Virus record (IMG/VR): IMGVR_UViG_3300027742_000005
Span: 1-45,091 of that record
DNA: 45,091 nt
Direction: 5' to 3' (one strand)
Origin: a virus
Below the pieces are notes generated by a model. That model made no database searches. It was not told the DNA's origin and was given only the letters and a program-made list of their open reading frames with translations. Positions 1 through 45,091 of this stretch are shown here, one piece after another. The stretch's first letter is position 1. Each line of letters starts with the position of its first letter. Position numbers and translations under genes: made by a program.

Positions 1-99
1 CTATATCTTCAGTAGATAAATCTTTATGCACATTATTATAAACCGCAGTAGTTACATTCCAAGCAGTAGATAAAGTATATTGATAAACATCCCTCGTTG
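1..99. repeat. Terminal direct repeat, identical to 44993-45091 (circular-assembly overlap or terminal redundancy); unique genome length 44,992 bp
   Basis: Compared both ends base by base: ctatatcttcagtagataaatc...aacatccctcgttg occurs at both termini. A minus-strand frame passes through the junction without a stop. Confidence 0.95.
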
Positions 100-499
100 C
101 ATATCCCAACATATACATTTTAAGTCCATCGGGTTTAAATACAACCTTATATGGAGCTGTATCTTCTCCACTTACAAGTTTACTAGCACGAAATTTCAAA
201 TCGGCTAAATTCCAAGGAGTTCCACTTATTTTACCTACATCTGCATCATCTGATAATGATACATCAACTCTATATGCGGTTGCAATCCTTGAAGCTCCTA
301 AATTTACATAATATGTGGTTCCTAAATTTAACTTTTTTATTTTCTTGACTTTTATCTCTTTCTCAAAAGGCATAAAATTGATTATATGCTTAAATCCGCA
401 ATGTGGGCAGATGAGGATTGGTCGATTTGCTTTATCATATTCAAAGATATTATTTTCCAAGTTATATTCTTTTTTACATTTACAACATATTATCTTCAT
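1..499 (-). CDS. N-terminal part of the junction-spanning 1008-aa repeat protein (zinc ribbon plus first propeller-like blade); continues into 42465..45091
   Basis: ATG at 499-497, just after the stop of the upstream gene (512). My translation is MKIICCKCKKEYNLENNIFEYDKANRPILICPHCGFKH...VVFKPDGLKMYMLGYATRDVYQYTLSTAWNVTTAVYNNVHKDLSTEDIE. It leaves position 1 in the frame that is open at 45091. Confidence 0.75.
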   Translation of the reverse strand, partial: MKIICCKCKKEYNLENNIFEYDKANRPILICPHCGFKHIINFMPFEKEIKVKKIKKLNLGTTYYVNLGASRIATAYRVDVSLSDDADVGKISGTPWNLADLKFRASKLVSGEDTAPYKVVFKPDGLKMYMLGYATRDVYQYTLSTAWNVTTAVYNNVHKDLSTEDI

Positions 500-511: not shown

Positions 512-850
512 TTATTCCTTCTGGTATTCGTATTTTACTTTGCAATATTTCGCTGTGCTATTTGATACCGCACATCCGAATGGTCTATTGACTCCTAACC
601 CGCAAATCCATTTATTTCCATAACCGGGAGGATTTACCAAATAAACGCATTGACCATTTATAATAGGGAAGGGATGCTCTTTGGTTAAATGCTTACAACA
701 TTCTCCACACATTGAACATCCCTTTGTTTTGACTTTCCATTTATCTCCTCTGGTCTTCTCTGCTATTAAATCTATCCCCGCGAATACTCGTATATTTCTT
801 TCTTTTAAATCCTCTACTATATTATCTGGGATTTCCAATTCTATTTTCAT
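512..850 (-). CDS. Cys-cluster protein with CxxCxxCC motif (YkgJ/UPF0153-like zinc/iron-chelating domain)
   Basis: ATG 850 with SD GAGAGGA. 112 aa with 8 Cys, including C-S-M-C-G-E-C-C. Family name recalled from memory. Confidence 0.5.
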   Translation of the reverse strand: MKIELEIPDNIVEDLKERNIRVFAGIDLIAEKTRGDKWKVKTKGCSMCGECCKHLTKEHPFPIINGQCVYLVNPPGYGNKWICGLGVNRPFGCAVSNSTAKYCKVKYEYQKE

Positions 851-882: not shown

Positions 883-1677
883 TTATGCTCCATCTATCTC
901 GATATCCAAATCCCCTGCTGGGAAATTTAACTGGTCTCCTATTCCTATTACTACTGAAGAATCCAATGCTCCATGGAATATCAGATTCGCTACCGCCTGC
1001 AAAGTTAAATTATCTGATATAAAGAAATGGGTAATCGTTCCCTGTGGTGCGGTGGTACAGGCATCGAATAATATTGCTCCTGTATTATCGGCGAGTTTCG
1101 CTGCTGCTGCATCCCAGGCATTGATATTCTTTCTGGCGTATCCGTTTCCGCTTGGTTCTCCTGCTGCCAGGCCTGATGCATCATCTTGCGGTGTGGCTTT
1201 AGCATATCCTACATATAAATTGGTTGGTACAGAAAGTTCTCCATTTTTGAATATGTGGTCCAAGAATGAATTTGCCCAGCTATTCCCTATTCCTCCTGCT
1301 GCCAGGGATACGTCTATATCTCCTATTGCGATATATAAATTATCTCCTGAATTTACGGTTATTTGGGTTATGTCGTCTTTCCCTAATAGGTTTCCTCCTG
1401 TTATGGCATCATATATTGCTACATAATTTACATTTCCCCAATCTGCTCCCGCCTCTGGAAACTCCAATTTGGCCTCATTCGATAATGCTCTGGCTGCTGC
1501 ATTAGTCCATCCGTTCGCTTGTACCCTGGCATAGGTTGACCCTGGGCATTCTGTACCTGCTCCTTCGGGATCTCCGTCAAATAATGCAATATAGATATTA
1601 GTTGGTTGTGCCAGTGGTGTGGTCTTTAGAATATGGTCTAATATTTTGTTACATACATCTATGCTTAAAACTCCCAT
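883..1677 (-). CDS. Tandem-duplicated Ala/Gly-rich virion accessory or fibre-like protein
   Basis: ATG 1677, SD AAGGAG. Two homologous halves: ILDHILK..PTNIYIALFDG..YARV..W..LEFPEA..WGNVNYVAIYDAITGGNLL versus FLDHIFK..PTNLYVGYAK..GYARKNINAW..ILFDAC..GTITHFFISD. The motif set recalls a widespread ~130-aa phage/prophage family. Local GC is 48-53% in two sampled 60-nt windows, against ~28% nearby. Confidence 0.4.
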   Translation of the reverse strand: MGVLSIDVCNKILDHILKTTPLAQPTNIYIALFDGDPEGAGTECPGSTYARVQANGWTNAAARALSNEAKLEFPEAGADWGNVNYVAIYDAITGGNLLGKDDITQITVNSGDNLYIAIGDIDVSLAAGGIGNSWANSFLDHIFKNGELSVPTNLYVGYAKATPQDDASGLAAGEPSGNGYARKNINAWDAAAAKLADNTGAILFDACTTAPQGTITHFFISDNLTLQAVANLIFHGALDSSVVIGIGDQLNFPAGDLDIEIDGA

Positions 1678-3163: not shown

Positions 3164-3168
3164 CTTTA

Positions 3169-3618: not shown

Positions 3619-3847
3619 CTCCTTTACCTATGAAATAGAACTTTATAATATATCCGATTATTATTCCCCAGGTACTCATTACCATTGCAAAAGGAGTAGT
3701 AAATTCAAATTTTCCTAATAGAGTCATTTTATAAGCATTAATGATAATTATAGGGAATGGTACTGCCATTATCAGTACCAGAAATCTCCTTATTAGTCTG
3801 AATTTAATTATTTGTTTATTTATTTTGTTTAATCGTTTTATTGCCAT
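3599..3847 (-). CDS. Holin candidate (two TM helices)
   Basis: 82 aa with helices FLVLIMAVPFPIIIINAY and FAMVMSTWGIIIGYIIKFYFI and an acidic tail GDEADND. Lies immediately upstream of, and overlapping, the endolysin. Confidence 0.6.
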   Translation of the reverse strand: MAIKRLNKINKQIIKFRLIRRFLVLIMAVPFPIIIINAYKMTLLGKFEFTTPFAMVMSTWGIIIGYIIKFYFIGKGDEADND

Positions 3848-17790: not shown

Positions 17791-18362
17791 TTTGTCTTTC
17801 TCCAAAAACAAGTTTTTATATAATCAGGAGGCCCATCCCATTCATCTTTATATAGAGGTTTAAGCCCATATTTTATTACAGTATCTTTTGTATTCTCTTC
17901 TGTTAATTTTGCCATTGCTATTGATTGCCAATCATGAGAAGCGAATACAGAATCCTTAGGTAATAATTTAATGAAATAATTAAAATCCCTTAATTTATTT
18001 CCATTATCAGAAAAGAATAAAATCGGGCTATCAATATATTTGTTCATCTCTTGAATAGAGTCTTTATGATAACAATCTCTATTAATGAATTTTATCCCTA
18101 GTAATTTGAAAAGTTTGGGTTCTTTAATCGATAATATATCATAAGTTAATAATGGTTTTAATCCTCTTTCATAACATTCTAATCCCAAAAATATGGATAA
18201 AGCTCCGCGCCCAGTTCCGATTTCGATTATCCCTTTTATCTGTTTATTATCATTCAAGATATCATCTATTACTTTATACATCCAATAAGCATGGCTTTGA
18301 CGAAATCCTAAAAAAGTTCCATACCATCTTTTATATTGATATCTTAATTCATCAGTTACCAT
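17787..18362 (-). CDS. Class I SAM-dependent methyltransferase (CmcI-like sugar O-methyltransferase fold)
   Basis: 191 aa. IKGIIEIGTGRGALSIFLG is SAM motif I. The overall layout resembles the cephalosporin-hydroxylase/CmcI family. Confidence 0.55.
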   Translation of the reverse strand: MVTDELRYQYKRWYGTFLGFRQSHAYWMYKVIDDILNDNKQIKGIIEIGTGRGALSIFLGLECYERGLKPLLTYDILSIKEPKLFKLLGIKFINRDCYHKDSIQEMNKYIDSPILFFSDNGNKLRDFNYFIKLLPKDSVFASHDWQSIAMAKLTEENTKDTVIKYGLKPLYKDEWDGPPDYIKTCFWRKTK

Positions 18363-20331: not shown

Positions 20332-22155
20332 TTAATATCTTTTCTTTTTACTTCGACCCATTGCATCCCGATTATCCTCTTCTAATGCTTTTTTGGAATT
20401 TTCTGCTTCTTCTTCCAGAGTGGCATCTCCTTTTATAGCATTAGACTTGCCTTTTTTAACAAGTTTCTCGAGGCCTTCAACCTTTTCGGTAAGACCTTTT
20501 ATCAATTCATCATTAGAGATATCTTTCTTGTCCTTTTCCTCTTTCTCTTTTTTCTCTTTCTCTACCTTTTCCTTTTCTGCTTTAGCTTTTTCTGCTTCTT
20601 TTTCTTCCTCTGTTTTTTCTCCCTTCTCTAATGATTTATCGATTTTTTCTATCTGTTCAGCAATAGGTTTTAATTTCTCATCAATAGTTTTTTCAACTAA
20701 TTCTTTGACTTCTTCATCTTTCATTTCGATATCACCTTCCTTTTCTTTTTTGATTTTGGGTTCTGCCCTCTCCCCTTCGGCTTTTTTTATTAATTTACCT
20801 AAAGATTCCCATGCCTTTTTTAAATCTCCAAAAGTAGATTCTGATATTATTCTACCTTTCTTTTCAGTACCGTTAATCATATCTATCACCTTGCTTATTA
20901 TACTTTTTTTATCTACCTCTTTTTCCTTACTTTTAATAGAAAAGAATTTGGATTTTGGTACGCAGGCCTCATCTACAATACTTACTATTGGTACGAGCCA
21001 ATTATCCCCGAGGTCAGCTATTAAAGTCTTTTTTAAGGATGCAATTAATTCCTTACTTATATCTTTTCCTTTGTTCGCAGTTTCAGTTAATTGCTTTAAT
21101 GCAGTTTCTCTGATTCCCATGATAGAGAATCCGGTAAGTTCTCCACTATCAATCTTTTTCCATACTTCTTCTTTCTTTACTTTAGCACCCATGACCCAAG
21201 TTCCTTCTGGCAATAACATCTTCTTTCCGTATGCCTCAACTTCCCATTCCATTGGTAAGAGATAAGTCTCTATCGGTACCGCCACATTATTAAGTCCATG
21301 CATATAATCTATATTGCCATAATCTTCCATCCATTTATGAGCAACTCTCTCGACTTCCTCTCTAGTTAATATCTTTTCTCCTTTATCAAAATCATAATCG
21401 GGTTCACCCGGTACGAGTACAGCAGCGAATACTATTTTCTGTACATTATCTTTTAATACTATTGGTCCGGTTAATTCAGCTCCTTTACTTGCTCTTTTTT
21501 CTCCTGGCCATTTGCCTTCTGCTTGATAATGCAACCAGGCACATAGGGCTTCGGGGTCAGTTATCCCCGGTTTATCTGATAATGCATCTACGCACGCAGT
21601 AAAACTGCCAGCCCAACTTCCCCAAGTATCAATTATTGATTCTATCCCCTTTACAGTCTCCTTCAATTTCTCCACATTACTAAAATCAAAAGACTCCGAG
21701 AATAACCGTTTCTTCGCGTAAACTTCAGTTACTTCTTTCGGAGTCCCAAATGTGATTTCTCCTTCTTCATTCTTTGAATATAGAATTTCATAAGTACCAG
21801 TACCTTTATCATCACTCGCAATTATTGCATCTTCAAAAGTACATATTACCCAATAATCAGGATATATCATAGATAGACTTCCCCTAAGCTTTTCTTGTTT
21901 CTTCTCCAGACTATCTTTTACATCCCTATCCTTTTTCACATTCATAGGATTGCCTCCTTCCTCATTTATTTTTACCTTACCTTGCCACCCACTTGCCCTG
22001 ATAGCCCGGCCTTGAGCGGCGGCTTTATCTTTTGCTTTTTCTCTGGCACTTTCATTATTACAAGTATAATAATATTTCTTACCAGTACTTCCCCATCGTG
22101 CATAACATTTAGGTTCTTCCTTTTTATTACTATCATATCCTGTATGTACTGGCAT
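20332..22155 (-). CDS. Prohead protease (XkdF-like) fused to a K/E-rich scaffold-like coiled coil
   Basis: The central IVFAAVLVPGEPDYDFDKGEKILTREEVERVAHKWMEDYGNIDYMHG...GTWVMGAKVKKEEVWKKIDSGELTGFSIMG matches the XkdF-type serine protease family. The C-terminal ~170 aa is EKEK-rich. Confidence 0.65.
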   Translation of the reverse strand: MPVHTGYDSNKKEEPKCYARWGSTGKKYYYTCNNESAREKAKDKAAAQGRAIRASGWQGKVKINEEGGNPMNVKKDRDVKDSLEKKQEKLRGSLSMIYPDYWVICTFEDAIIASDDKGTGTYEILYSKNEEGEITFGTPKEVTEVYAKKRLFSESFDFSNVEKLKETVKGIESIIDTWGSWAGSFTACVDALSDKPGITDPEALCAWLHYQAEGKWPGEKRASKGAELTGPIVLKDNVQKIVFAAVLVPGEPDYDFDKGEKILTREEVERVAHKWMEDYGNIDYMHGLNNVAVPIETYLLPMEWEVEAYGKKMLLPEGTWVMGAKVKKEEVWKKIDSGELTGFSIMGIRETALKQLTETANKGKDISKELIASLKKTLIADLGDNWLVPIVSIVDEACVPKSKFFSIKSKEKEVDKKSIISKVIDMINGTEKKGRIISESTFGDLKKAWESLGKLIKKAEGERAEPKIKKEKEGDIEMKDEEVKELVEKTIDEKLKPIAEQIEKIDKSLEKGEKTEEEKEAEKAKAEKEKVEKEKKEKEEKDKKDISNDELIKGLTEKVEGLEKLVKKGKSNAIKGDATLEEEAENSKKALEEDNRDAMGRSKKKRY

Positions 22156-22428: not shown

Positions 22429-23355
22429 TTATACTCCTATCTTTACTAAATCTTCTTCATAAAAGAAATCTCTTCCGGTCGGTGCTTTAAATCCTTCTGG
22501 CATTAAGAAAGGTACTACCCTGCATCTACATTGAATCCATTCAGCTATATCTCCACTTGTATCGAGAGGATGCATTAATCCATTACTGAATGGTTCTCCT
22601 ACCTTTACTATCTGTCCATGTAGATATGTATGGTCTGCTAAATCTGCAGGGTCATTCCCTCTAACTCTATCATCTTGTGCAGTCCACCATTGATGATAAT
22701 CTACTCCCAATTCCTGCTCGGTCATAAATGTAGCTACATTCTGCGCTCCATTTATTTCAGTCCTCGCTACTCTACTTAATTCATAATCAAGCATTGAATC
22801 AAATGTACTATCAAGATTACTCGCGGCCTCAGCTATTCCTAAACCTTCTTCATAACTATCGGCAAGATTAGCCATTACATTATCCGTTATTCTGGCAAGC
22901 GTGGCATCAGAAGCTACAAAGGTTTTATCCTTAATCAATTTTAATATTTCTGGAGAGAATTCGCTAAATTCTACATCTGCTATTTTTATTATCACTCGGG
23001 GTCCCGAGCTTGTCCTTGATTTTTTAGTTTGCTTTTTGATTTCACGTATAGTTTCAGTCCTATGATAGCTTAAAGTCTCCTGTTTATTATCGAATAATGT
23101 ATTACCAAAATCCTCTTTTATGTCACTCAACCCTGATAATAGAGCTTTCCTCTCCATATCACTCGAAGGAACAGTATCTCTCTTCTTCAATTCATTCATT
23201 ATCTTTTTGAACTGCTTACTAAAGAGTTTTCTTAATTCCCTATTTAGTCTGCTCTCTTCCTCAATTATCTTCTTTGGTATCCCTTTGTATATTCCTAAGG
23301 AATTTCGCGTATGCTCTATCTCTATCAGCATCTTTAGGATAGCGTTTTCTAACAT
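22429..23355 (-). CDS. Head morphogenesis protein, SPP1 gp7 / Mu F family
   Basis: The C-terminal SRVARTEINGAQNVATF..YHQWWTAQDDRVRGNDPADLADHTYLHGQIV..IQCRCRVVPF is the family signature. ATG 23355 overlaps the portal gene by 95 nt, so the start is uncertain. Confidence 0.8.
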   Translation of the reverse strand: MLENAILKMLIEIEHTRNSLGIYKGIPKKIIEEESRLNRELRKLFSKQFKKIMNELKKRDTVPSSDMERKALLSGLSDIKEDFGNTLFDNKQETLSYHRTETIREIKKQTKKSRTSSGPRVIIKIADVEFSEFSPEILKLIKDKTFVASDATLARITDNVMANLADSYEEGLGIAEAASNLDSTFDSMLDYELSRVARTEINGAQNVATFMTEQELGVDYHQWWTAQDDRVRGNDPADLADHTYLHGQIVKVGEPFSNGLMHPLDTSGDIAEWIQCRCRVVPFLMPEGFKAPTGRDFFYEEDLVKIGV

Positions 23356-24805
23356 CTTCCATCAACACCTCGATTAATTTATTCTTCAGGCCTTCAAGTA
23401 TATTAACTAATTCTATCTCCGGTACAAAACTACCAGCATCTATTGCTTTACCACTAAGGTAATGCATATCCATAGCAGGATTATCTTCTACTGCTTTAAG
23501 CCCATATCTATTTCCTACATGAGCAATTCCTTGATTCGGGGTCATCATAGCATTTGTTATTAACTTGATACATCTATCAATCTCTTTATCCTCATCTTTA
23601 GTATCTATGCTTACCAATTTCCATATCCAATCTTTGATTTCAAGTGTAGGAAATACAAAGAAATTAATGAATTCTTCGTAGAGTTTCTGTTTAGGAAGTA
23701 TTACTGAATCATTATAAATTACAGTACTTTCCAATCCGAGATTCCCTGCTAATTGTCCGGTCTCATATATTCCCATTCTGTAAGGTGGAGTGGCATGTGC
23801 AGTAATGACTTCATTTCTATTATCAACTCTATATAATCTAAAACTTGCCTCTTTTATATCAGTAGAAATCGGTTTAATATCAATCTTGACTTCACCCAGT
23901 GAACCATCCCTTTTAGGAACTACCATAGTCATAACACTATGAGGATTCTGAGCCATAGCTTTAAATTTTTCTTTGATAGCAGTTTCTAATGGGGTCATCT
24001 TAGTTTTAGGGTCCTCTTTACCCGGTTCGAAATCTCCGGTAATGTAAACTATATATGCAGGTATACCATAATTCTTGAAGAAGGATATATTATAATCCCT
24101 TCTGGAGATATCCCCGGTTATAGCTCCGATCGCAGGAACGATATCAGGCACTCCATAAAAAGTACTTCGAGGATAGTAATTCATAAGCCAGTATATCTCA
24201 GTTGCCCTCTTACTTTTATCCAGAGATTTTTCTTTTAATTCTCTACCATCCTTTTTATCTACATCTTTCTCATATCCGAAATTCCTGAACCAGACTTTTT
24301 TATTATTCCATTTCTGGCAGAATTTATTACCTTGTTTGTGCATTCTTATAGTATATGCAGGTATATGAGTAATCAGACTTACCGGACCATTAAAATCATT
24401 ATTCTCTCTTACTACTTCCAGGCCTGAATATCCGTTAGCTTCATAATCTATACTCGACCTTCTTATGGTTTCTTCTATCGGCATATTCTGATTAGCAAAA
24501 AAATCATTTATCCTTTTCTTTTCTTCTTCACTCGGCTTGTCTACTTTGGATTCAAGTTCCCAGCCCTTCCCGGAAGTATCGTTCGATTTGGTCTTACAAG
24601 CCCTCATGTGATAGGTATTCATCTCCATCAACTTGGCCATGGTTACAGGTTCATATAAGGGTTCTACTAATCCGCTTTCTTTATATTCCTTAGCAAATAC
24701 TTCCTTCTCCAGTTGCTGACTCTTTTCCTCTCTTTGGTATTTTGCCAAGACATCCAAACTTACTACTTCACCTATATTAGTTACAATGCAAAATGGCTTA
24801 CTCAT
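23261..24805 (-). CDS. Portal protein
   Basis: 514 aa, SD AAGGAG, ATGA-coupled to the upstream gene. Lies between the terminase and the gp7-like gene. Core motif YYPRSTFYGVPDIVPAIGAITGD. Confidence 0.8.
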   Translation of the reverse strand: MSKPFCIVTNIGEVVSLDVLAKYQREEKSQQLEKEVFAKEYKESGLVEPLYEPVTMAKLMEMNTYHMRACKTKSNDTSGKGWELESKVDKPSEEEKKRINDFFANQNMPIEETIRRSSIDYEANGYSGLEVVRENNDFNGPVSLITHIPAYTIRMHKQGNKFCQKWNNKKVWFRNFGYEKDVDKKDGRELKEKSLDKSKRATEIYWLMNYYPRSTFYGVPDIVPAIGAITGDISRRDYNISFFKNYGIPAYIVYITGDFEPGKEDPKTKMTPLETAIKEKFKAMAQNPHSVMTMVVPKRDGSLGEVKIDIKPISTDIKEASFRLYRVDNRNEVITAHATPPYRMGIYETGQLAGNLGLESTVIYNDSVILPKQKLYEEFINFFVFPTLEIKDWIWKLVSIDTKDEDKEIDRCIKLITNAMMTPNQGIAHVGNRYGLKAVEDNPAMDMHYLSGKAIDAGSFVPEIELVNILEGLKNKLIEVLMEDVRKRYPKDADRDRAYAKFLRNIQRDTKEDN

Positions 24806-25934: not shown

Positions 25935-27374
25935 TCACCTTACTCTTACCTCTGTCTTCTCTCTGGTCGAACATCGAGGCATATAAGCTACACAATCTAC
26001 CATGTCATCATTCTCTCCATCATCAAAAGCACAAAGCTCATCTTCAAAGACTTCGAGATTCTCCATTTTAGCATTATGATAGACTTTTCCGCTTTCGTAT
26101 TTAGCGCTCATCGGCATAGCCCGGGTAACTTTATCCTTATCTGCTTCCAAAGGCCTTACTGACATATCAGGAAATACATCCATCTCATCCATTAATACTC
26201 TTTGATATTGTTTAGTCTCTATTCCCATCCATCTCAGGCCAAATATTTTCCACCTTATATAATTCATCCTTGACAGCTTTTTCTGTTCACCCCAGGAATA
26301 CCTTCCTCTTCTGATATCAATTATATAGAAATTGCCTTCTTTGTCCAGACCATAAGTTAAGATTACAAAGTAATCAGCTTTATCACTCTTCGATATTGCT
26401 AAATCGCAAGTCTGATAAATAGCTAAATCCTTATAACTAAATCTACGTCCATCAGTATCTCTGAAATCGCCTTCGGGGGTCTTATCGAAATACTTAAACC
26501 ATTCCCGGTGAAATATCTTTCCGATTTTCATGAGTTCAGTATCATTTTGCCATTGAGCATTAAATACTATCGAACCCCATTTGTTCTTCTTATCCATCAA
26601 CCATTTGAAAGAATACATTTCAGGCCATAAAACTTTTTTGCTTTCTTCGTCTATTATTGCTCTATGAGAATTCTTATTAGTTCTTACTCCACGTTTGAGT
26701 ACTTTATCATATTCATCATCATGGTGATATCTAGTACCATTCCAACCTATTTTCCCATCTTTTTTTACCATGGGAATCAAAGTCATCCCCAACCAATCAT
26801 GTACTTTATCCCTCTGATATTTAGTCCTCGAATTATCAAAATCGATTATATCGTCAATCATTAAATAATCAAAATCTAATCCGGTAATCGATTTCCCATA
26901 ACTGATAGCTGTTACAGTCGAAGTCTTTTTTATTTTATCTGCTCCTATTACATTAAATTCAGTATCTGACCAGGGAGTACCAGGAGCAAGATAAGGATAC
27001 ATCTCTCTTAATACTACATTCCTCTCCAACTGCATCTTCGTTTCCCTGGAGAACTTTATGGCTTGTCCATCTGTATCTGAACATATACCTACTTGCACAT
27101 TAGGATTTTCTATGATTCTTGCTATAGTCCTGATTACTGCCCTTACCGTAGTTTTAGCAAAGTTCCTGGGACCTAAACATAAATCCTCTTCTTCTTCATC
27201 ATGCAATCCTAAATTAAACCATTCTTCATGAAATTTCTTCCATTCATAATCCGGATATAATATTTTAGCTAACTGCCAGGGGTCAGCTTTTACTTCCCTT
27301 CTTTTCTTCTCTATCAGGAATTTGAAGTATTGTTCCTTTTGCGAGCGTGATAATGTATTTATCGAGTTCTTCAT
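25935..27374 (-). CDS. terL: Terminase large subunit
   Basis: Track start is GTG 27377; ATG at 27374. LCLGPRNFAKTT (Walker A-like), FDYLMIDDII (Walker B), and a C-terminal nuclease region (CDLAISKSDKADYFVILTYG, GENDDMVDCVAYM). Confidence 0.9.
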   Translation of the reverse strand: MKNSINTLSRSQKEQYFKFLIEKKRREVKADPWQLAKILYPDYEWKKFHEEWFNLGLHDEEEEDLCLGPRNFAKTTVRAVIRTIARIIENPNVQVGICSDTDGQAIKFSRETKMQLERNVVLREMYPYLAPGTPWSDTEFNVIGADKIKKTSTVTAISYGKSITGLDFDYLMIDDIIDFDNSRTKYQRDKVHDWLGMTLIPMVKKDGKIGWNGTRYHHDDEYDKVLKRGVRTNKNSHRAIIDEESKKVLWPEMYSFKWLMDKKNKWGSIVFNAQWQNDTELMKIGKIFHREWFKYFDKTPEGDFRDTDGRRFSYKDLAIYQTCDLAISKSDKADYFVILTYGLDKEGNFYIIDIRRGRYSWGEQKKLSRMNYIRWKIFGLRWMGIETKQYQRVLMDEMDVFPDMSVRPLEADKDKVTRAMPMSAKYESGKVYHNAKMENLEVFEDELCAFDDGENDDMVDCVAYMPRCSTREKTEVRVR

Positions 27375-27840
27375 CACTTAAACCTTCCATTCCGGTTTTA
27401 TCTTTAGTTTCTATCTCTCCTTTAAATTGCATTAATAGTTTTGCAGGTTCTCCTAATAATGATAAATCAAGTTTAATCATCCTCTCAAGTGCCAGGAGTG
27501 CAGCATTATATTGTGCCATATTCTCAATCTTAATTTCTTTATTCCTGACTTTCTCTACTATGGTTGAAATGATAGAATTTATTATCTTCGTATTTATCTT
27601 AATGGTATTATGATATTCTGCTTTCTCCTCGATTATGGACTTGGTAATCCTTCTCTCTACTCCCTGCATTATCTCAGTATCACGTTTCTCTATCCGTTTT
27701 TTCCATTCGAATTCAGTTTTCCATTTTTCGATACTTCTCCTTGAAACTGAGAACTCATCAGCAACTAATTGTGAAGTTCTTTTATCTCCTAAATTATAAT
27801 AAAACTCAAATGCCCTCCTGTGTCTATCATTTTCTAACAT
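27283..27840 (-). CDS. terS: Terminase small subunit (HTH-containing), inferred
   Basis: 185 aa immediately upstream of terL, overlapping it by 92 nt. HTH-like TSQLVADEFSVSRRSIEKWKTEFEWKKR. Confidence 0.55.
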   Translation of the reverse strand: MLENDRHRRAFEFYYNLGDKRTSQLVADEFSVSRRSIEKWKTEFEWKKRIEKRDTEIMQGVERRITKSIIEEKAEYHNTIKINTKIINSIISTIVEKVRNKEIKIENMAQYNAALLALERMIKLDLSLLGEPAKLLMQFKGEIETKDKTGMEGLSDEELDKYIITLAKGTILQIPDREEKKGSKS

Positions 27841-31583: not shown

Positions 31584-32411
31584 TTATGAATTTTTTAGCT
31601 CATCTTTTTTCATAGGCATCTTCTCCTTACCTTTTGATTCGGAAACAGGTTGATGTTTTAATTTTTTTATCGCTTTTGCTATTTCTACCTGTCCCGTTTT
31701 CCTATTTTTATTAAATTCTTCTTTAGTCATTTTTTTAGATTTATATTTCTCATAACTAAGATCTTCACTTTCACCTTTATCTTTTGCCTTCTCTCGAGCT
31801 TGTTTCCGGTCTTTCCTATACCAAGCTAATATGGTGGCATAATGACTCTTATATCTTTTCCCCTTCGATTGTATATAAAGCGAAAGGTCTTTCATATACT
31901 CTTTGGTCGGGTTTTTTCCTATCTCATTTATCAATTTATCATATTCTTTAGGTGTAAGAAAAACCCCTTTTTCATGTTCTTTCTTCTCTTTATTTTTTAT
32001 TTCTTTCTGTTTATCTTTTTCTTCTGGAATATAATTATTTTCCTTTTTGATAAATTCTATTAATCTAACATCCTTTACCTTTTTAAACTCTGATTCAATG
32101 TGCTTTCTCACCTTCTCATTATCAGCAAGATAATTATATTTACCCCAATTCTTGATAGCTATTTCATGAGTATCTGGATTATATTTAATCTTCTTTAATT
32201 TATTCTCGAAAAAATCAATTACTTTCAATAATTCTTCTTTACTAAATCCTGTATGAGCAATTACCAATTTCAGAGGGAATTCACTAATTCCGCATTGACT
32301 TGATTTCGGATTAGTAAGTAAATATAAATAAAATAATCTCTGATCTCGAGTGAGTTCAAGCATGTCGGGGTCTTCCCAAAATCTGGTATGAACATATCTG
32401 TATTCTGCCAT
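31584..32411 (-). CDS. Replisome organizer / DnaD-like replication initiation protein
   Basis: N-terminal FWEDPDMLELTRDQRLFYLYLLTN..CGISEF fits the phage replisome-organizer N-terminal domain pattern. K-rich C-terminal half. Confidence 0.65.
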   Translation of the reverse strand: MAEYRYVHTRFWEDPDMLELTRDQRLFYLYLLTNPKSSQCGISEFPLKLVIAHTGFSKEELLKVIDFFENKLKKIKYNPDTHEIAIKNWGKYNYLADNEKVRKHIESEFKKVKDVRLIEFIKKENNYIPEEKDKQKEIKNKEKKEHEKGVFLTPKEYDKLINEIGKNPTKEYMKDLSLYIQSKGKRYKSHYATILAWYRKDRKQAREKAKDKGESEDLSYEKYKSKKMTKEEFNKNRKTGQVEIAKAIKKLKHQPVSESKGKEKMPMKKDELKNS

Positions 32412-41382: not shown

Positions 41383-41982
41383 TTATTTAACTCCTTCATT
41401 ATTCCTTCCTGTATTACATTTCATACATAGAACTCTTAAATTATCGAATTTATTGCTCCCACCTTTTGATATAGGTATAATATGGTCAATTTGTAATTCT
41501 GTATTTTTTGAAGTTTTACCACATATTTGACACCTATATTTATCCCTTTGTAATACTCTCATTCTTAATGAATTGCTTATTTTACTTCTACCATGCTCAT
41601 TAGGTAATTTTATTTTATAGTTATCCCCTAATACTATTTTTATAATTTCAGAAGGAACTTTTTTTAATATATTTGCTATTGCTATTTCCATTTTTGGTCC
41701 TCCAAATTTTTTAGTATATTTAAATATATCTTTTATCCCTATCCATTTCCTATTAAGGAAATATATCTTATCATCTTTCTGAAATTTATTTAATATTTCA
41801 ATTACTTTCTCTCTTTTTATTTCTGTATCTATTGCCATAAATATTGTAGATATTTCATAAATACCTATAACATTACTATATTCATTAGTTAATAAATATA
41901 AAAATAATGTTTTCTCGTCAGTATTTAAATCTTCAATATAATCATCTCTCCAAAATCCACTATTAATTGTTTTTTCGCTCAT
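41383..41982 (-). CDS. Replisome-organizer-like N-terminal domain fused to a C-terminal HNH nuclease
   Basis: Track start TTG 42033 is actually the -35 hexamer; ATG 41982 has SD AAGGGG. The N-terminus FWRDDYIEDLNTDEKTLFLYLLTNEYSNVIGIYEIS is paralogous to 31584..32411. C-terminus: RCQICGK..LQIDHIIPISKGGSNKFDNLRVLCMKCN. Confidence 0.65.
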   Translation of the reverse strand: MSEKTINSGFWRDDYIEDLNTDEKTLFLYLLTNEYSNVIGIYEISTIFMAIDTEIKREKVIEILNKFQKDDKIYFLNRKWIGIKDIFKYTKKFGGPKMEIAIANILKKVPSEIIKIVLGDNYKIKLPNEHGRSKISNSLRMRVLQRDKYRCQICGKTSKNTELQIDHIIPISKGGSNKFDNLRVLCMKCNTGRNNEGVK

Positions 41983-42004
41983 GATATTATCCCCTTTTTT
42001 ATTT

Positions 42005-42033
42005 ATAATACTATAGATACTGTATCTTGTCAA
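42005..42033 (-). promoter_or_regulatory. Sigma70-type early promoter (TTGACA-N17-TATTAT) with a 13-bp palindrome in the spacer
   Basis: Minus-sense sequence: TTGACAAGATACAGTATCTATAGTATTAT. AGATAC-A-GTATCT (42014-42026) is a perfect palindrome. AAGGATAATA overlaps the -35 hexamer. Confidence 0.65.
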
Positions 42034-42144
42034 GGATAATATATAAAAATATCGATACTCTATATATAAAGTTAAATTTTTTTTGCTGTTTTATTTTGAC
42101 TCTATCACTAAGGATAAGAAAAAGAATAAAGATAAGGATAATAT

Positions 42145-42459
42145 CTATACTTGTGGAATCACCATAAAATTTAATTTCTTCTTATGAGGTCCCGACCAAT
42201 CCCATATTACTATTAAATCATTTTTATCAATCAATTCTATTCCATTCTCTCCCTCTGTTCCTGCAATATTCCATTCTAAGGCATAATTATAATCTTCATT
42301 TTCTATTTTTTCAGCAGGTTCTTTATCAAGCAAACATTCTCCATTTTTTTTATATACTGAAACAGTGATTACCGGTGGAGAATATTCTGCTCCAGTCCTT
42401 AAATTTTTTATTCCTGCGGTAAATAATATAGTATCTCCTATTAAATATTTATCAGCCAT
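42145..42459 (-). CDS. Hypothetical beta-rich protein (104 aa), last gene of the late transcription unit
   Basis: ATG 42459 with SD GAGAGGT. Confidence 0.6.
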   Translation of the reverse strand: MADKYLIGDTILFTAGIKNLRTGAEYSPPVITVSVYKKNGECLLDKEPAEKIENEDYNYALEWNIAGTEGENGIELIDKNDLIVIWDWSGPHKKKLNFMVIPQV

Positions 42460-42464: not shown

Positions 42465-45091
42465 TTACCTCTCAATCTTTAATTTTGATTCATTACTTTT
42501 AATACTTAATATACTATCAGTTTCTATTATATCAAAAATCGATTTATTAGTTAATATCCCTAAAGTTGCTTGAGAATATGCAAATTGCTGACTTATTTCT
42601 ATCTCTATCAGAGTATCGAATATCGATTTACCATTTACATTTAAAATCCTTTTCAAGTCTATATTGATTAGACTGTCAATATCAGCTTTCCCATTTATGT
42701 TTTTATATCTTGATAATTTGCTCCCAATCGAAGTATAAATATATGCTTTACCATTAACATTAATGATTTCTCCTTTAGTGATAATGATATTGCATAGAGT
42801 TTCCAGAATCGCTTTACCATTTATTGATATAATTCTATTAAGAAGCACATCTATATTCGTATCAGATTGACTCTTACCGGAAGTATTTTTCGCACCTTCT
42901 TTCTGTAATATTGCAATCATGCTTGATGTAATATTTAAAATACCATCTACATTCTCAATTTTTCCTCTGCTTAAAATGGAATCTATAATCGTAATTATAG
43001 AGGATTCCCCCGATATTGTTTTAATCTTTCCTCTGGATAAAACTATATTTGTCAAAGAAGAAACATCTACTTTACCGGAAACCGATTCTATTTTTCCTCG
43101 AGATAAAGCCATAATGATAGAAGTATTTATATTACTCTTTCCATTAATATCTTCTACCTTTCCTCTGGAGAGTATACTAATAAATTCAGAATATATATTT
43201 GATTTCCCTGTAACGTTCTCTACTTTTCCTCTGGATAAGATCGCTGTAAAAATAGAATTCAGAGATGATTTTCCGATAGCATTTTCTATTTTACCCCGAG
43301 AGAGAGAAATAATTATATTAGATATTAATGAAGTTTTTGCTGAAACATCTTCTACTTTACCCCTTGATAATATAGTTATTACAGAAGTATCCATGTTTGA
43401 TTTACTGGATACACTCTCTACTTTTCCTCTTGATAGTATAGAAGTTATGATAGAAGTTATAGAGGCCTTACCTTGTGCTGCATAAATACCTTTAACAATA
43501 GATATAAAAGAGGATATTATATTTGATTTGCCTATTACATTTTCTATCTTTCCTCTTGATAATATACTATCAATATTAGAAGAAATACTTGCTTTACCTA
43601 TTACATCCTCAATTTTACCTCTGGATAGAATTAAAACTATATTTGATATTATACTTACTTTAGCAGAGATATTTTCGATTTTTCCCCGGGAGAGAATTGC
43701 AGATAGAAATGTAATTATAGATGATTCTCCGATTGCATCTTTTATTGCTCCTTTACTCAGTATAGAAATTACAGAGGAAGTTATATCCGATTTAGCAGTT
43801 CTATTTATTAATCCTGTTAATGTACTTATAATACTCGAAGTTAAACTTGCTTTAGCAGTCGCTCCTTCTATTTTTCCTCTATCTAATATTACCGCTGTGA
43901 TTGTGGTTATGCTCGCTTTCCCTGATACATTTTTCCCTCCTCCTTCTGATATTTGTAACACAGATATCAGATTCGATGTTATATTCGCTTCCCCTGTTAC
44001 GTTCCTTTTTGGTGATATTGTAATTGTAGCCAAGCACGTTCCGATAGATGTTCCTTCTGTAACATCCCATAATTCAAATTCATATTCTGCTCCTGGCTCT
44101 GCGTCATCACAGGATAAAGCCCATTGAAATTCGGTATAATATTCGTCGGGAAGGGTATAATTAAAACTATCAGGAGAAATATTATCCCCTTCACTTTCTT
44201 TACCTCCTTGAAAGGTATAGCCAGATTGTTCACCACATATTCTTTCTGCATCAAGAAGAGGGTCATCATTTACAAGAACTGTTGTCGCATCATAAGTTAT
44301 CTCTCCTGTCGCTCCTACATCTACAAATGTCCCGCCTGTTTTTCTCCATCGAAGTTTATAAGAACGTGTAACTGGTCCTTTTGAAGTATAAATTCTTGTA
44401 GCTAAAATAAAATCATCGGCTTTAGCCCATGGACCAAGTAAAACATATTGATGAACAGTATCAGTATCAGACCCAGTCATATATAATTTTTTTCCATCTT
44501 CTTTGAACCAAATACCTCTCGGATATTCTTCCTCATTAATTGTATTTTTATACACACTATCGTAAGTAGCCGAAGATACAAGCCAAGCAGTAGACAAACC
44601 ATATTGATAAATACAATGGTCGCCATAATCCAATACATACATTTTTGTTCCATCAGGTTTAAAAGAAACGCTTTGTGGTCCCGTAGATTGTCCAGAAACA
44701 AGTTTTTCACAGTTATAAACTGCTGAAGATACATCCCAAGCAGTTCCTAAATTATATTGACTAACCTTATCAGTCCATGCAGTTATAACATACATTTTTG
44801 TTCCATCTGCTTTAAAATACAAATCACTTGGAGATTCAGCCGCCGCAGGTAAAGTAAAATCTTCACCAGTATCATAGCTTAATGTAGATAAATCCCATGC
44901 AGTAGATAATGAATATTGAAATATTTTATCTTCGTTTCCGCCACACATATACATTTTCATTCCATTTGATTTGAAAAAAATTCCAGATGGTTCTATATCT
45001 TCAGTAGATAAATCTTTATGCACATTATTATAAACCGCAGTAGTTACATTCCAAGCAGTAGATAAAGTATATTGATAAACATCCCTCGTTG
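42465..45091 (-). CDS. C-terminal 875 codons of the junction-spanning 1008-aa protein (propeller-like blades, a beta-sandwich-like middle and a 22-aa tandem-repeat array)
   Basis: The frame is open to the window end; the track start at 45023 is an internal GTG. Four blades of the form F-K-x-D/N-G-x-K-M/L-Y...QY.LSTAWD.S (a fifth lies in 1..499). About 21 repeats follow, of the form xGKSxIxSxIxSILSRGKIEN. Confidence 0.8.
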   Translation of the reverse strand, partial: TRDVYQYTLSTAWNVTTAVYNNVHKDLSTEDIEPSGIFFKSNGMKMYMCGGNEDKIFQYSLSTAWDLSTLSYDTGEDFTLPAAAESPSDLYFKADGTKMYVITAWTDKVSQYNLGTAWDVSSAVYNCEKLVSGQSTGPQSVSFKPDGTKMYVLDYGDHCIYQYGLSTAWLVSSATYDSVYKNTINEEEYPRGIWFKEDGKKLYMTGSDTDTVHQYVLLGPWAKADDFILATRIYTSKGPVTRSYKLRWRKTGGTFVDVGATGEITYDATTVLVNDDPLLDAERICGEQSGYTFQGGKESEGDNISPDSFNYTLPDEYYTEFQWALSCDDAEPGAEYEFELWDVTEGTSIGTCLATITISPKRNVTGEANITSNLISVLQISEGGGKNVSGKASITTITAVILDRGKIEGATAKASLTSSIISTLTGLINRTAKSDITSSVISILSKGAIKDAIGESSIITFLSAILSRGKIENISAKVSIISNIVLILSRGKIEDVIGKASISSNIDSILSRGKIENVIGKSNIISSFISIVKGIYAAQGKASITSIITSILSRGKVESVSSKSNMDTSVITILSRGKVEDVSAKTSLISNIIISLSRGKIENAIGKSSLNSIFTAILSRGKVENVTGKSNIYSEFISILSRGKVEDINGKSNINTSIIMALSRGKIESVSGKVDVSSLTNIVLSRGKIKTISGESSIITIIDSILSRGKIENVDGILNITSSMIAILQKEGAKNTSGKSQSDTNIDVLLNRIISINGKAILETLCNIIITKGEIINVNGKAYIYTSIGSKLSRYKNINGKADIDSLINIDLKRILNVNGKSIFDTLIEIEISQQFAYSQATLGILTNKSIFDIIETDSILSIKSNESKLKIER
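42590..44003 (-). repeat. Coding tandem array: about 21 diverged copies of a 66-bp / 22-aa unit
   Basis: Units such as VIGKASISSNIDSILSRGKIEN, VIGKSNIISSFISIVKGIYA and VSSKSNMDTSVITILSRGKVED. On the plus strand, ttt(c/a)cc(t/c)c(t/g)(g/t)ga(t/g)a recurs about every 66 nt. Confidence 0.85.
44993..45091. repeat. Terminal direct repeat, identical to 1-99
   Basis: See the feature at 1-99. Confidence 0.95.

What the first reader, a model, noticed from the sequence alone, without database searches (positions are those of the whole stretch)
42465..45091. Junction-spanning 1008-aa protein: zinc ribbon, five propeller-like blades and about 21 tandem 22-aa repeats
The gene starts at 499, crosses the contig junction and ends at 42465. 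Its architecture, read from the translation, has four parts. First, an N-terminal CxxC...CxxC zinc ribbon. Second, five ~47-aa repeats (F-K-x-D/N-G-x-K-M/L-Y ... QY.LSTAWD.S..Y), consistent with a five-bladed propeller. Third, a ~130-aa beta-rich module. Fourth, a 1.4-kb array of 22-residue units (consensus roughly V-x-G-K-S-x-I-x-S-x-I-x-S-I-L-S-R-G-K-I-E-N). I do not recognise the 22-mer as any named repeat family. The gene lies after the lysis cassette rather than with the tail genes. A probably cytoplasmic zinc ribbon is odd for a fibre protein. A 66-bp coding array is also a natural substrate for copy-number variation.
Basis: partly seen in the sequence, partly recalled or inferred. Interest (0 to 1): 0.7.

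Follow-up and report, generated by a model that had tools for sequence, protein, structure and literature searches.

The report
Phage fibre protein with 22-residue repeat track
This real 1008-residue gene of a circular tailed-virus genome most likely encodes the exchangeable, sugar-binding-type head and repeat-built shaft of an accessory virion fibre that works with a neighbouring 'bead' protein known from phage GP4, so it is an unusual variant of a known fibre type rather than a new kind of system.

Summary
The window is a circular assembly with a 99-bp end overlap, and the gene (499→1, then 44992→42465, minus strand) encodes 1008 aa. An identical protein lies uninterrupted inside two other independent assemblies, so the junction and the repeat number are real.

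The architecture is a CxxC…CxxC zinc ribbon, then a β-module interrupted by an inserted five-bladed propeller (AF2 pLDDT ~95; blade period ~52 aa, not 47). Then come 21 units of about 22 aa (z≈27–30 versus shuffles) and a conserved C-terminal tail.

The 22-mer is in no named family. Only about a dozen related clusters turned up among 1.84 billion representatives. Its weak similarity to 22-residue leucine-rich repeats fails the motif, Pfam and fold tests.

The main new fact is synteny. In 9 of 9 contexts, a tandem Gp80 gene (GP4 fibre I / Bas63 whisker 'bead') lies just upstream of the repeat gene. The Gp80 subtype tracks the repeat subtype, while the head domains are swapped.

Best reading: an accessory fibre subunit. 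About even odds that the 22-mers are the 'rope' on which Gp80 beads are strung, rather than a self-folding β-solenoid shaft. The DNA units are only 54% identical, so copy-number slippage is unlikely.

The parts
365..499 (-). aa 1-45: N-terminal zinc ribbon (CCKC … CPHC). An AGAGGAG Shine-Dalgarno-like site lies just upstream.
   Evidence: Translation. The four Cys are conserved in homologues. Pfam zinc-ribbon hits are weak. AF2 gives four short strands.
236..364 (-). aa 46-88: linker plus the first segment of the β-module (LGASRIAxxxRVDxSxxDDxxV).
   Evidence: Collinear with P0133 residues 52-88. The same motif directly precedes the β-module in P0195 and in the second copy of P0004.
1..235 (-). 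aa 89-166: first part of the inserted five-bladed β-propeller. Bases 1-99 duplicate 44993-45091.
44430..45091 (-). aa 135-354: rest of the five-bladed β-propeller (blades 1-5, ~52-aa period).
   Evidence: AF2 pLDDT ~95 with 20 strands in 5 blades. Foldseek returns only generic propellers. More than 4339 blade-repeat homologues. Homologues lie in tail-fibre modules of cultured phages.
44001..44429 (-). aa 355-497: main body of the β-rich module.
   Evidence: 60% identical to P0133 residues 91-235. Homologues P0194-196. The AF2 model is only partly confident.
42633..43994 (-). aa 500-953: array of 21 units of ~22 aa (GKSSIxSxIxSILSRGKIENVx). Proposed shaft or 'rope'.
   Evidence: AF2 gives an all-β structure with pLDDT 75-82 over aa ~576-796. 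No significant fold match.
42465..42632 (-). aa 954-1008 plus the stop codon: conserved C-terminal tail (GKSIFDTLIEIEI…QATLGI, then 9-aa mini-repeats). Proposed virion-proximal anchor.
   Evidence: Conserved in P0004, P0015, P0121-126 and P0131. AF2 confidence is low. The anchor role is an inference.
883..1677 (-). Neighbour: 264-aa protein with two tandem Gp80 domains (GP4 fibre I / Bas63 whisker 'bead').
   Evidence: PF23140, E = 3.8e-57, two stretches. PDB 8jou_a, E = 5e-8. Lies directly upstream of the repeat gene in 9 of 9 contexts.
512..850 (-). Neighbour: 112-aa Cys-rich protein (CxxCxxCC-type motif), present only beside the propeller-bearing variants.
   Evidence: 81-88% identical copies in L001 and L002; absent from L005 and L011. 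No family hit.
42145..42459 (-). Neighbour: 104-aa β-rich protein, the last gene before the gap that precedes the early genes.
   Evidence: 56-77% identical copies follow the repeat gene in L002 and L005. No family hit and no similarity to GP4 gp77.

Best explanation
The gene encodes the variable subunit of an accessory (side or neck-type) virion fibre of a siphovirus-like tailed virus.

- **Head.** The N-terminal part is an exchangeable head: a zinc ribbon plus a β-module carrying an inserted five-bladed, lectin-like propeller. It probably binds a surface glycan of the host.
- **Shaft.** The C-terminal 21 × 22-aa array is the shaft.
- **Anchor.** The conserved C-terminal tail anchors the fibre to the particle.
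- **Partner.** The protein works with the tandem Gp80 protein encoded just upstream.
- **Most likely mechanism (about even odds given the fibre role).** Each ~22-aa unit is a docking site. Its β-strand completes the incomplete β-sandwich of one Gp80 domain, as the 'rope' does in phage GP4 fibre I and in the Bas63 whiskers. The result would be a beads-on-a-string fibre with about 21 Gp80 domains, which is about 10 tandem proteins.

Shown: the architecture, the reality of the gene, the Gp80 synteny, the head swapping, and the absence of any named family. Inferred: virion location, polarity, glycan binding, and the rope mechanism.
For: **Late-operon position**
- The gene is tightly packed on the same strand after the tape measure, Dit- and Tal-like tail genes and the lysis genes.
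- It is the penultimate gene before a 111-bp gap that holds the best promoter-like site.

**Gp80 neighbour**
- The neighbour at 883-1677 is a double PF23140 Gp80 domain and matches PDB 8jou_a.
- In Bas63 and GP4, Gp80-type dimers wrap an extended rope 'like beads on a string', and the rope completes their incomplete sandwiches (PMC12609058).

**Synteny**
- A 264-265-aa Gp80 gene directly precedes the 22-mer gene in all 9 contexts seen. These span two Gp80 subtypes that are only ~45% identical, and the pair lies either before or after the lysis genes.

**Gp80 subtype follows repeat subtype, not head type**
- P0127 has a B-like head with A-type repeats, and its partial Gp80 is 98% identical to the window's.
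- P0130 has an A-like zinc ribbon and jelly-roll head with B-type repeats and a B-type Gp80.

**Periodicity downstream of other Gp80 genes**
- Genes directly downstream of Gp80 homologues in GP4 (gp79), C72C1, Siphoviridae sp. cta39025, CRP-5 and phiM5 have a ~20-aa (10/20) periodicity, z = 3-6.
- Controls give z ≤ 1.5.
- GP4 gp79 has about 11 units of 20 aa, against the 10 gp80 monomers per fibre I reported in PMC12609058.

**Head swapping**
- A closely related virus (L005; Dit 83% and Gp80 80% identical) carries a different head on the same zinc ribbon, repeat and tail frame.
- Other relatives fuse the repeats to LamG-like, GLUG or discoidin-like domains.

**Propeller in known fibre modules**
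- Blade homologues sit in the tail-fibre modules of Lentibacter phage ICBM2 and Roseobacter phage CRP-13.
Against: - There are no virion proteomics or images, so the structural role rests on context.
- That GP4 gp79 is the rope is my inference. Its sequence is not in the PDB, and the GP4 paper could not be read.
- Profile comparison finds no homology between the 22-mer array and gp79 or the C72C1 protein (probability < 1%).
- AF2 folds the isolated array as a stacked all-β rod with moderate confidence (pLDDT 75-82). That favours a self-folding shaft.
- The array is much more hydrophobic (19% Ile) than the Gly/Ala-rich GP4 candidate rope.
- There is no 44-aa super-period, although one might be expected if the two diverged Gp80 domains bound alternate units.
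- No Gp77-type Ig adaptor was found.
Confidence: 0.5

Rival explanations
1. The protein is a self-contained fibre or adhesin. The 22-mers fold on their own, or as a homo-oligomer, into a β-solenoid or β-helical shaft about 10 nm long. The Gp80-like protein is a separate fibre component or connector that does not thread onto the repeats.
For: - The AF2 model of aa 497-1008 has 20-residue strand runs with a 2-residue break every 22 residues, at pLDDT 75-82.
- The only weak Foldseek neighbours are β-solenoids: RsaA, LpxA, CsgA and IgA1 protease.
- Six conserved hydrophobic positions per unit could form a core.
- There is no sequence homology to the candidate ropes.
Against: - No Foldseek match is significant (best E = 0.37 against the PDB and 2.4e-3 against the viral library).
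- Four of the five AF2 models were poor (mean pLDDT 37-44).
- As a general tendency, recalled from memory, AF2 stacks any β-prone repeat.
- A solenoid would stack the conserved Arg15, Lys17 and Lys2 into like-charge ladders over ~21 coils. This is an inference.
- It does not explain why the Gp80 subtype tracks the repeat subtype.
Confidence: 0.3
2. The array is a highly diverged 22-residue leucine-rich repeat of the internalin, SDS22 or Roco type. The protein would then be an LRR-type binding protein, possibly a non-structural accessory ('moron') gene.
For: - phmmer aligns the array in register with 22-aa LRRs: CtRoco 5il7 at E = 2e-7, and internalins weakly.
- NCBIfam inl_like_NEAT_1 hits at E = 2e-5.
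- The exhaustive search hits bona fide LRR_4 proteins at E from 1e-15 to 1e-4.
- LSRGKIENV resembles LSxNxIxDI.
Against: - The LRR hallmark Asn aligns with an invariant Gly. LRR core positions L7 and L20 are Ser and Lys here. The best-conserved Ile12 falls on an exposed LRR position.
- No Pfam LRR model hits, even at E ≤ 1.
- AF2 gives no helices and no horseshoe, and Foldseek gives no significant LRR match.
- E-values for period-matched repeats of biased composition are unreliable.
Confidence: 0.07
3. The protein is not a virion component. It could be a late-expressed accessory protein, such as a cell-surface or lysis-associated factor or a host-manipulation protein, that merely sits at the end of the late operon.
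For: - In the window it lies after the lysis genes, where accessory genes often sit.
- It has no hit in PHROGs structural families.
- It has an N-terminal zinc ribbon.
Against: - It is strictly linked to a Gp80 fibre gene (9 of 9 contexts).
- In L006 and L013 the pair lies between the tail and lysis genes.
- The protein has no signal peptide or membrane segment in its sequence.
- The head-domain swapping is typical of receptor-binding proteins.
Confidence: 0.08

Closest known systems
Ralstonia podophage GP4 fibre I (gp80 dimers on a 'rope' protein, held by the gp77 fibre-tail adaptor), and the homologous collar-whisker complex of Escherichia phage Bas63
   Same: - A Gp80-fold bead protein is encoded directly upstream (PF23140; PDB 8jou_a).
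- The downstream gene has periodic, β-prone repeats of about 20 residues.
- The polarity matches GP4 gp79: repeats first, then a non-repeat C-terminal part.
- In GP4 the number of ~20-aa units is close to the number of bead monomers.
   Different: - The bead is a fused tandem of two Gp80 domains rather than a dimer.
- The 'rope' is far longer and more regular (21 × 22 aa). It is Ile/Ser-rich rather than Gly/Ala-rich, and it has no detectable sequence homology to gp79.
- It carries large N-terminal globular domains: zinc ribbon, β-module and propeller.
- No Gp77-type adaptor was found.
- The particle is siphovirus-like, not a podovirus or myovirus.
22-residue leucine-rich repeats (internalin, SDS22 and Roco LRRs; Pfam LRR_4)
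   Same: The period is the same (22). Part of the motif is shared (I/L-x-L-S-x-x-x-I-x-[DN]-[IV]). There are weak in-register HMMER hits.
   Different: The Asn is replaced by an invariant Gly. Two core Leu positions are lost. No Pfam LRR model hits. The predicted structure is all-β with no helical face.
Blade-repeat β-propellers of the YVTN / SGL-lactonase type, annotated by JGI as YncE or YvrE, found in tail-fibre modules of marine phages (Lentibacter phage ICBM2 gp51, Roseobacter phage CRP-13 gp43)
   Same: The blade motif is the same (FKPDGTKMY … QYxLSTAWDxST), with 40-49% identity over about 260 aa. It occurs in phage fibre gene clusters.
   Different: - There is a single five-bladed unit, inserted into another domain. 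Most relatives have 10-30 blades in tandem.
- It falls just below the Pfam SGL threshold.
- No enzymatic residues were examined.
Repeat shafts of classical fibres (adenovirus or reovirus triple β-spiral with 15-aa repeats; T4 gp5/gp12 triple β-helix) and two-sheet β-solenoids (curli CsgA)
   Same: These are short strand-turn-strand repeats with alternating hydrophobic residues and a Gly at the turns. They have a rod-forming role in a fibre.
   Different: The period and motif differ. There is no sequence or significant fold match. The oligomeric state is unknown.

Membership tests
GP4 fibre I / Bas63 whisker 'beads-on-a-rope' system | A bead protein with the Gp80 fold (PF23140) is encoded with the system. 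| tested here: met
   Window 883-1677: PF23140, E = 3.8e-57, two domains. PDB 8jou_a, E = 5e-8.
GP4 fibre I / Bas63 whisker 'beads-on-a-rope' system | An extended rope with periodic strand-donating segments is encoded next to the bead gene. | tested here: inconclusive
   Synteny is 9 of 9. A ~20-aa periodicity is seen downstream of Gp80 genes in 5 of 6 other phages. However, the identity of the GP4 rope as gp79 is inferred, not confirmed.
GP4 fibre I / Bas63 whisker 'beads-on-a-rope' system | Sequence homology between the repeats and the known or candidate rope proteins. | tested here: not met
   hhalign probability is 0.2-0.4% against GP4 gp79 and the C72C1 protein.
GP4 fibre I / Bas63 whisker 'beads-on-a-rope' system | An Ig-like fibre-tail adaptor or collar (PF23148 Gp77) holds the rope. 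| tested here: not met
   PF23148 hits GP4 gp77. It does not hit the 104-aa neighbour or its counterparts, and BLASTP gives no similarity. Other window proteins were not all scanned.
GP4 fibre I / Bas63 whisker 'beads-on-a-rope' system | The rope physically runs through grooves of the bead domains. | not testable with these tools
   This needs multimer prediction or cryo-EM.
Leucine-rich repeat (22-residue bacterial or SDS22-like type) | The LxxLxLxxN/CxL core with a conserved Asn or Cys. | tested here: not met
   In the HMMER alignment the Asn column is an invariant Gly, and L7 and L20 are Ser and Lys.
Leucine-rich repeat (22-residue bacterial or SDS22-like type) | A match to curated LRR profile models. 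| tested here: not met
   No Pfam LRR family at E ≤ 1. The NCBIfam hit scores 23 bits against a cut-off of 1275.
Leucine-rich repeat (22-residue bacterial or SDS22-like type) | A curved α/β solenoid fold. | tested here: inconclusive
   The AF2 model is all-β with no helices. TLR structures appear only at E ≥ 4.9. Model confidence is moderate.
β-propeller (SGL / lactonase / YVTN-like) | Repeated four-stranded blades closing into a ring. | tested here: met
   AF2 gives 20 strands in 5 blades at pLDDT ~95. Foldseek gives E = 6e-9 to 1e-7 against YVTN, 6-phosphogluconolactonase and YWTD propellers.
β-propeller (SGL / lactonase / YVTN-like) | The Pfam SGL or Lactonase gathering threshold is reached. 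| tested here: not met
   SGL scores 25.1 bits against 26.3. Lactonase scores 21.2 against 21.7.
Zinc ribbon | Two CxxC knuckles on β-hairpins, conserved across homologues. | tested here: met
   CCKC … CPHC. The motif is conserved in at least 10 homologues. AF2 gives four short strands. Pfam models are only sub-threshold. Metal binding was not tested.
Classical trimeric tail fibre or tailspike | Known fibre domains such as a collar, triple β-helix, S74 chaperone or tail-fibre N-terminal anchor. | tested here: not met
   No such Pfam, PHROGs or NCBIfam hit. The oligomeric state is not testable here.

The most novel reading that the evidence does not exclude
One polypeptide is both the receptor-binding head and a 21-site 'rope'. 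Each 22-residue unit would donate a strand to one Gp80 domain, so about ten tandem Gp80 proteins would be strung on it. That would make a long (tens of nm) beads-on-a-string fibre on a siphovirus-like particle. Its length would be set by the repeat number and its specificity by a swappable head. The 22-mer would then be a new, previously undescribed docking repeat. The finding that genes just downstream of Gp80 genes in unrelated phages share a ~20-aa periodicity would generalise the GP4/Bas63 rope principle.
Probability: 0.4. Interest if true: 0.7.

Novelty: new variant of a known kind. Interest (0 to 1): 0.55.

Why it matters
**If the rope reading is right**
- The 'beads on a rope' fibre has so far been seen only in GP4 and in the Bas63/Sf14 whiskers. 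This family would extend it to siphovirus-like viruses.
- It would show a version in which the rope is fused to the receptor-binding domains.
- It would offer a simple sequence signature for finding such fibres in metagenomes: a Gp80 gene followed by a gene with a ~20-22-aa periodicity.

**Also**
- The family is a natural example of modular head swapping on a constant shaft, which is relevant to host-range engineering.
- The 22-mer is a clean, rare repeat suited to structural study.

**If the rope reading is wrong**
- It is still a new β-repeat shaft family in an otherwise ordinary receptor-binding protein.

Tried and rejected
**Rejected explanations**
1. **Assembly artefact.** Rejected, because the identical protein lies internal to two other assemblies.
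2. **DNA tandem repeat or slippage substrate.** TRF finds nothing. The units are 54% identical and the longest exact repeat is 16 nt.
3. **LRR membership.** It fails the motif, Pfam and fold tests.
4. **Odd/even (44-aa) super-period in the array.** None found.

**Searches that gave no useful match**
5. **Family libraries.** PHROGs gave nothing for the protein, NCBIfam only the sub-threshold LRR hit noted above.
6. **Foldseek, full model.** It returned only generic propellers.
7. **Foldseek, C-terminal model.** Nothing significant against the PDB or the viral library.
8. **IMG/VR loci.** A single-protein search for the C-terminal region found none. The alignment was too variable to seed a search.
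9. **Homology of the array to GP4 gp79 or the C72C1 protein.** None.
10. **104-aa neighbour against the GP4 gp77 adaptor.** No similarity.
11. **Small neighbours against PDB sequences.** Nothing.
12. **Promoter and terminator scans.** Uninformative, apart from one strong promoter-like site after the 104-aa gene.

**Could not be done**
13. **GP4 structure paper (J Mol Biol 2023).** It could not be read. GP4 details come from PMC12609058 and PMC11445570.
14. **Host assignment.** Unresolved. The head genes resemble Methanobacteriales viruses, while the replication and lysis genes look bacterial.
Full report

The first 99 bases of the window are identical to the last 99. The contig is therefore a circular assembly of 44,992 bp. 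Joining 499→1 to 44992→42465 on the minus strand gives an open frame of 3027 nt, which is 1008 aa plus a stop.

The same 1008-aa protein (P0001; 100% identity and coverage) is encoded well inside two other assemblies, made from other samples and apparently with other assemblers. These are ERZ27237536 k141_1092557 (45,133 bp) and ERZ778604 NODE_2846 (20,055 bp). The junction and the length of the repeat array are therefore not artefacts of this assembly.

The window has 32.7% G+C, and almost all genes are on the minus strand.

**2. Anatomy**

- **aa 1-45: zinc ribbon.** The motif is a CCKC…CPHC zinc ribbon. The four Cys are kept in every homologue that has this N-terminus. Pfam gives only sub-threshold zinc-ribbon hits.
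- **aa 89-354: propeller.** Five FKxDGxK[ML]Y…QYxLSTAW blades are spaced 51-54 aa apart. AlphaFold2 models them as 5 blades of 4 strands at pLDDT ~95.
  - Foldseek finds only generic six- to eight-bladed propellers, with TM-score (normalised to target length) ≤ 0.5.
  - Pfam SGL and Lactonase fall just below threshold.
  - The blade repeat is very common: more than 4339 hits, many with about 10, 15, 20 or 30 blades.
  - It occurs in the tail-fibre gene clusters of cultured marine phages, such as Lentibacter phage ICBM2 gp51 and Roseobacter phage CRP-13 gp43.
- **aa 46-88 plus 355-497: β-module.** This is one module split by the propeller. Target residues 2-88 and 355-497 align collinearly with P0133 residues 1-235 at about 60-65% identity, and P0133 has no propeller. 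The propeller is therefore a clean insertion. P0004 carries the module twice.
- **aa 500-953: repeat array.** There are 21 units; 15 are exactly 22 aa. The consensus is G-K-S-S-I-x-S-x-I-x-S-I-L-S-R-G-K-I-E-N-V-x. The lag-22 signal is 27-30 standard deviations above shuffles.
- **aa 954-1008: C-terminal tail.** It contains GKSIFDTLIEIEI…QATLGI and then 9-aa mini-repeats. Within the zinc-ribbon subfamily it is at least as well conserved as the repeat array.

**3. Is the 22-mer a known repeat?**

No.

- Pfam and PHROGs assign no family to it, and NCBIfam gives only a far-sub-threshold LRR hit (23 bits).
- A word-seeded search of 5.8 billion proteins with the C-terminal half found ten proteins.
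- An exhaustive HMMER scan of 1.84 billion representatives found 68 at E ≤ 1e-3. About a dozen of those are true relatives. Three of the four weaker hits that returned a Pfam match were bona fide LRR_4 proteins.
- HMMER also aligns the array in register with 22-residue leucine-rich repeats of known structure (CtRoco 5il7, E = 2e-7). However:
  - the LRR Asn column is our invariant Gly;
  - two LRR core leucines are Ser and Lys;
  - our best-conserved Ile12 falls on an exposed LRR position;
  - no Pfam LRR model hits, even at E ≤ 1.
- AF2 on aa 497-1008 gives an all-β rod, with 20-residue strand runs and a 2-residue break every 22 residues, at pLDDT 75-82 for aa ~576-796.
- Foldseek finds nothing significant in the PDB (best E = 0.37; the weak neighbours are mostly β-solenoids, with distant TLR LRR hits at E ≥ 4.9) or in the viral library (best E = 2.4e-3).

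I therefore do not file it as an LRR.

**4. Context**

The window is a siphovirus-like tailed virus. The genes identified are:

| Window position | Gene |
|---|---|
| 25935-27377 | Terminase large subunit |
| 23261-24805 | Portal |
| 20332-22155 | Protease fusion |
| 19286-20302 | Major capsid protein |
| 9376-11160 | Tape measure |
| 7586-8935 | Dit-like |
| 4569-7589 | 1006-aa Tal-like |
| 3816-4181 | XhlA-like |
| 3169-3618 | Peptidase_M15_3 lysin |
| 2720-3172, 2536-2706, 1703-2530 | Three membrane or coiled-coil proteins |
| 883-1677 | Gp80-like protein |
| 512-850 | 112-aa Cys-rich protein |
| 499→42465 | The target |
| 42145-42459 | 104-aa β-rich protein |

After the 104-aa gene comes a 111-bp gap holding the best promoter-like site, and then the early genes.

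The 883-1677 product has two tandem PF23140 domains, named 'Podophage GP4 fiber I protein gp80' (E = 3.8e-57). It matches PDB 8jou_a.

**5. The linkage**

Every contig on which a 22-mer protein could be examined has a 264-265-aa tandem Gp80 gene directly upstream. The contexts are the window, L001, L005, L006/L007, L010, L011, L012 (a partial gene, 98% identical to the window's) and L013. The same arrangement is seen in the two other assemblies of this virus. In the propeller-bearing variants only, the 112-aa Cys-rich gene is inserted between the two.

In L006 and L013 the pair lies between the large tail protein and a BhlA-like holin plus 3D-domain lysin. In the window and in L005 it follows the lysis genes. 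Its position relative to lysis is therefore variable, but it is always at the end of the structural operon.

The Gp80 proteins fall into two subtypes:

| Gp80 subtype | Identity within subtype | Repeat type it accompanies |
|---|---|---|
| A | 72-98% | GK-type (GKSxIxSxIxSILSRGKIENVx) |
| B | 74-92% | ST-type (STSxIxTSITSxLSRGIxEALx) |

The two subtypes are only ~45% identical to each other.

The head domains cut across this split:
- P0127 combines a B-like head with A-type repeats and an A-type Gp80.
- P0130 combines the zinc ribbon and jelly-roll head of the A group with B-type repeats and a B-type Gp80.

The head-coding segment lies between the Gp80 gene and the repeat-coding segment. Heads have therefore been exchanged while the Gp80 and repeat pair stayed matched.

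A close relative (L005; Dit 83% and Gp80 80% identical) carries a different head on the same frame. More distant relatives fuse the repeats to LamG-like, GLUG or discoidin-like domains.

**6. What Gp80 proteins do**

[quoted passage not shown] The rope runs through grooves and completes their incomplete sandwiches. In GP4, a separate and larger rope protein carries five fibre-I dimers (PMC12609058). A 93-aa Ig-like adaptor holds the fibres (PMC11445570; PF23148 hits GP4 gp77).

The GP4 gene just downstream of gp80 is gp79. It is 325 aa and annotated as virion-associated. Over its first ~245 residues it has a 10/20-aa periodicity, which makes about 11 units, against ten gp80 monomers per fibre.

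The same ~20-aa periodicity is found in the gene directly downstream of Gp80 homologues in phage C72C1, Siphoviridae sp. cta39025 (which also has a tandem Gp80), Roseobacter phage CRP-5 and Sinorhizobium phage phiM5, with z = 3-6. Sporosarcina phage Lietuvens and five control proteins of the window show none (z ≤ 1.5).

That gp79 is the rope is my inference. Its sequence is not in the PDB, and the GP4 paper is not held in the library.

**7. Interpretation**

The protein is best read as the variable subunit of an accessory fibre.

- Distal head: zinc ribbon, β-module and lectin-like propeller.
- Shaft: the repeat array.
- Proximal anchor: the conserved C-terminal tail.
- Partner: the tandem Gp80 protein.

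I put about 0.75 on this structural, Gp80-coupled role. Given that role, I put about even odds on the rope mechanism, in which each 22-aa unit docks one Gp80 domain. The alternative is a self-folding β-solenoid shaft.

*For the rope:*
- the synteny;
- the subtype co-variation;
- the general Gp80-then-periodic-gene pattern;
- the shared polarity (repeats, then a C-terminal non-repeat part);
- the strongly conserved charged motif LSRGKIEN in every unit.

*Against the rope:*
- no sequence homology to the candidate ropes;
- a much more hydrophobic composition (19% Ile);
- no 44-aa super-period;
- a moderately confident AF2 rod for the isolated chain;
- no Gp77-type adaptor found.

**8.

- A zinc ribbon is not odd for a virion protein, because particles assemble in the cytoplasm.
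- The array is a poor slippage substrate. The DNA units are 54% identical on average, the longest exact repeat is 16 nt, and TRF reports none. The region from the array start to the C-terminus is 511-512 aa in all three full-architecture proteins, although they are only 53-57% identical there. Repeat number does differ between subfamilies, from about 13 to 21.

**9. Novelty and score**

The parts are known kinds: a zinc ribbon, a propeller, and a Gp80 fibre partner. What is not described:
- the 22-mer family;
- its invariable pairing with a tandem Gp80 gene;
- the fusion of a long repeat track to swappable binding domains.

I rate it a new variant of a known kind, with interest 0.55. The host is unresolved. 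The head genes are closest to Methanobacteriales viruses (36-38% aa identity), but the replication and lysis genes look bacterial.

Noticed in passing
window 19286-20302 and 23261-24805, compared with 31584-32411, 3169-3618 and 3816-4181: Among cultured viruses, the major capsid and portal proteins are closest to Methanobacteriales siphoviruses (Drs3, psiM2, psiM100, PhiF3; 30-38% aa identity). By contrast, the DnaD-like replisome organiser, the Peptidase_M15_3 lysin and the XhlA-like protein look bacterial (Firmicutes-type). The host domain is unresolved.
   Followed up: partly
window 512-850 (minus strand): A 112-aa Cys-rich protein with a CSMCGECC (CxxCxxCC-type) motif lies between the Gp80 gene and the target. 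It is present only beside the propeller-bearing variants (window, L001, L002) and absent where the head is a different domain (L005, L011). It may be a head-specific helper. No family hit.
   Followed up: partly
L014 2206-3183 (GP4 gp79); L016 5391-6101; L017 4371-5552; L018 2112-2936; L019 3860-4456: Genes directly downstream of Gp80 homologues in five unrelated phages show a 10/20-residue periodicity (z = 3-6 against shuffles). GP4 gp79 has about 11 units, against ten gp80 monomers per fibre I. These are candidate 'rope' genes, which suggests a general synteny rule.
   Followed up: partly
window 16840-17811 (minus strand): A nucleotide-sugar epimerase-like gene (phrog_540, E = 1e-55) sits inside the head-tail structural module.
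   Followed up: no
window 42034-42144: The 111-bp gap after the 104-aa gene holds a 12-bp tandem repeat (42109-42141, 2.8 copies). The best sigma-70-like site of the region (TTGACA-17-TATTAT, 42033-42005) begins just past its lower edge. This is the probable boundary between the late and the next transcription unit.
   Followed up: no
window 41383-42033 (minus strand): The ORF combines a DnaD-like or replisome-organiser N-terminal part with a C-terminal HNH endonuclease. Another assembly calls a shorter 199-aa HNH gene here.
   Followed up: no
window 1703-2530, 2536-2706 and 2720-3172 (minus strand): Three proteins lie between the lysin and the Gp80 gene. Each has an N-terminal hydrophobic segment; the 275-aa one also has a long charged, coiled-coil-like stretch and a β-rich C-terminus. 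All three are conserved in L005. They are probably an extended lysis cassette. No family hits.
   Followed up: no
P0001-P0120 (homologues of window 44430-45091 and 1-235): The propeller blade repeat defines a very large uncurated family (more than 4339 hits). Protein lengths and motif counts cluster near 10, 15, 20 and 30 blades, which suggests tandem five-bladed units. JGI names them YncE or YvrE, but Pfam SGL is only borderline.
   Followed up: partly
window 42468-42560 (aa ~978-1008) and homologues P0124, P0130, P0151: The extreme C-terminus of the family consists of 9-residue mini-repeats (xxSxLSIxx; for example STQATLGIE ×3 in P0124 and five copies in P0130), ending in …IER or …IEE.
   Followed up: no
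window 4569-7589 (minus strand): The 1006-aa Tal-like tail protein is only 51% identical to its counterpart in L005, and lacks similarity over its first ~228 aa. The neighbouring Dit-like protein is 83% identical. This is a second diversifying host-recognition gene in the same genome pair.
   Followed up: no
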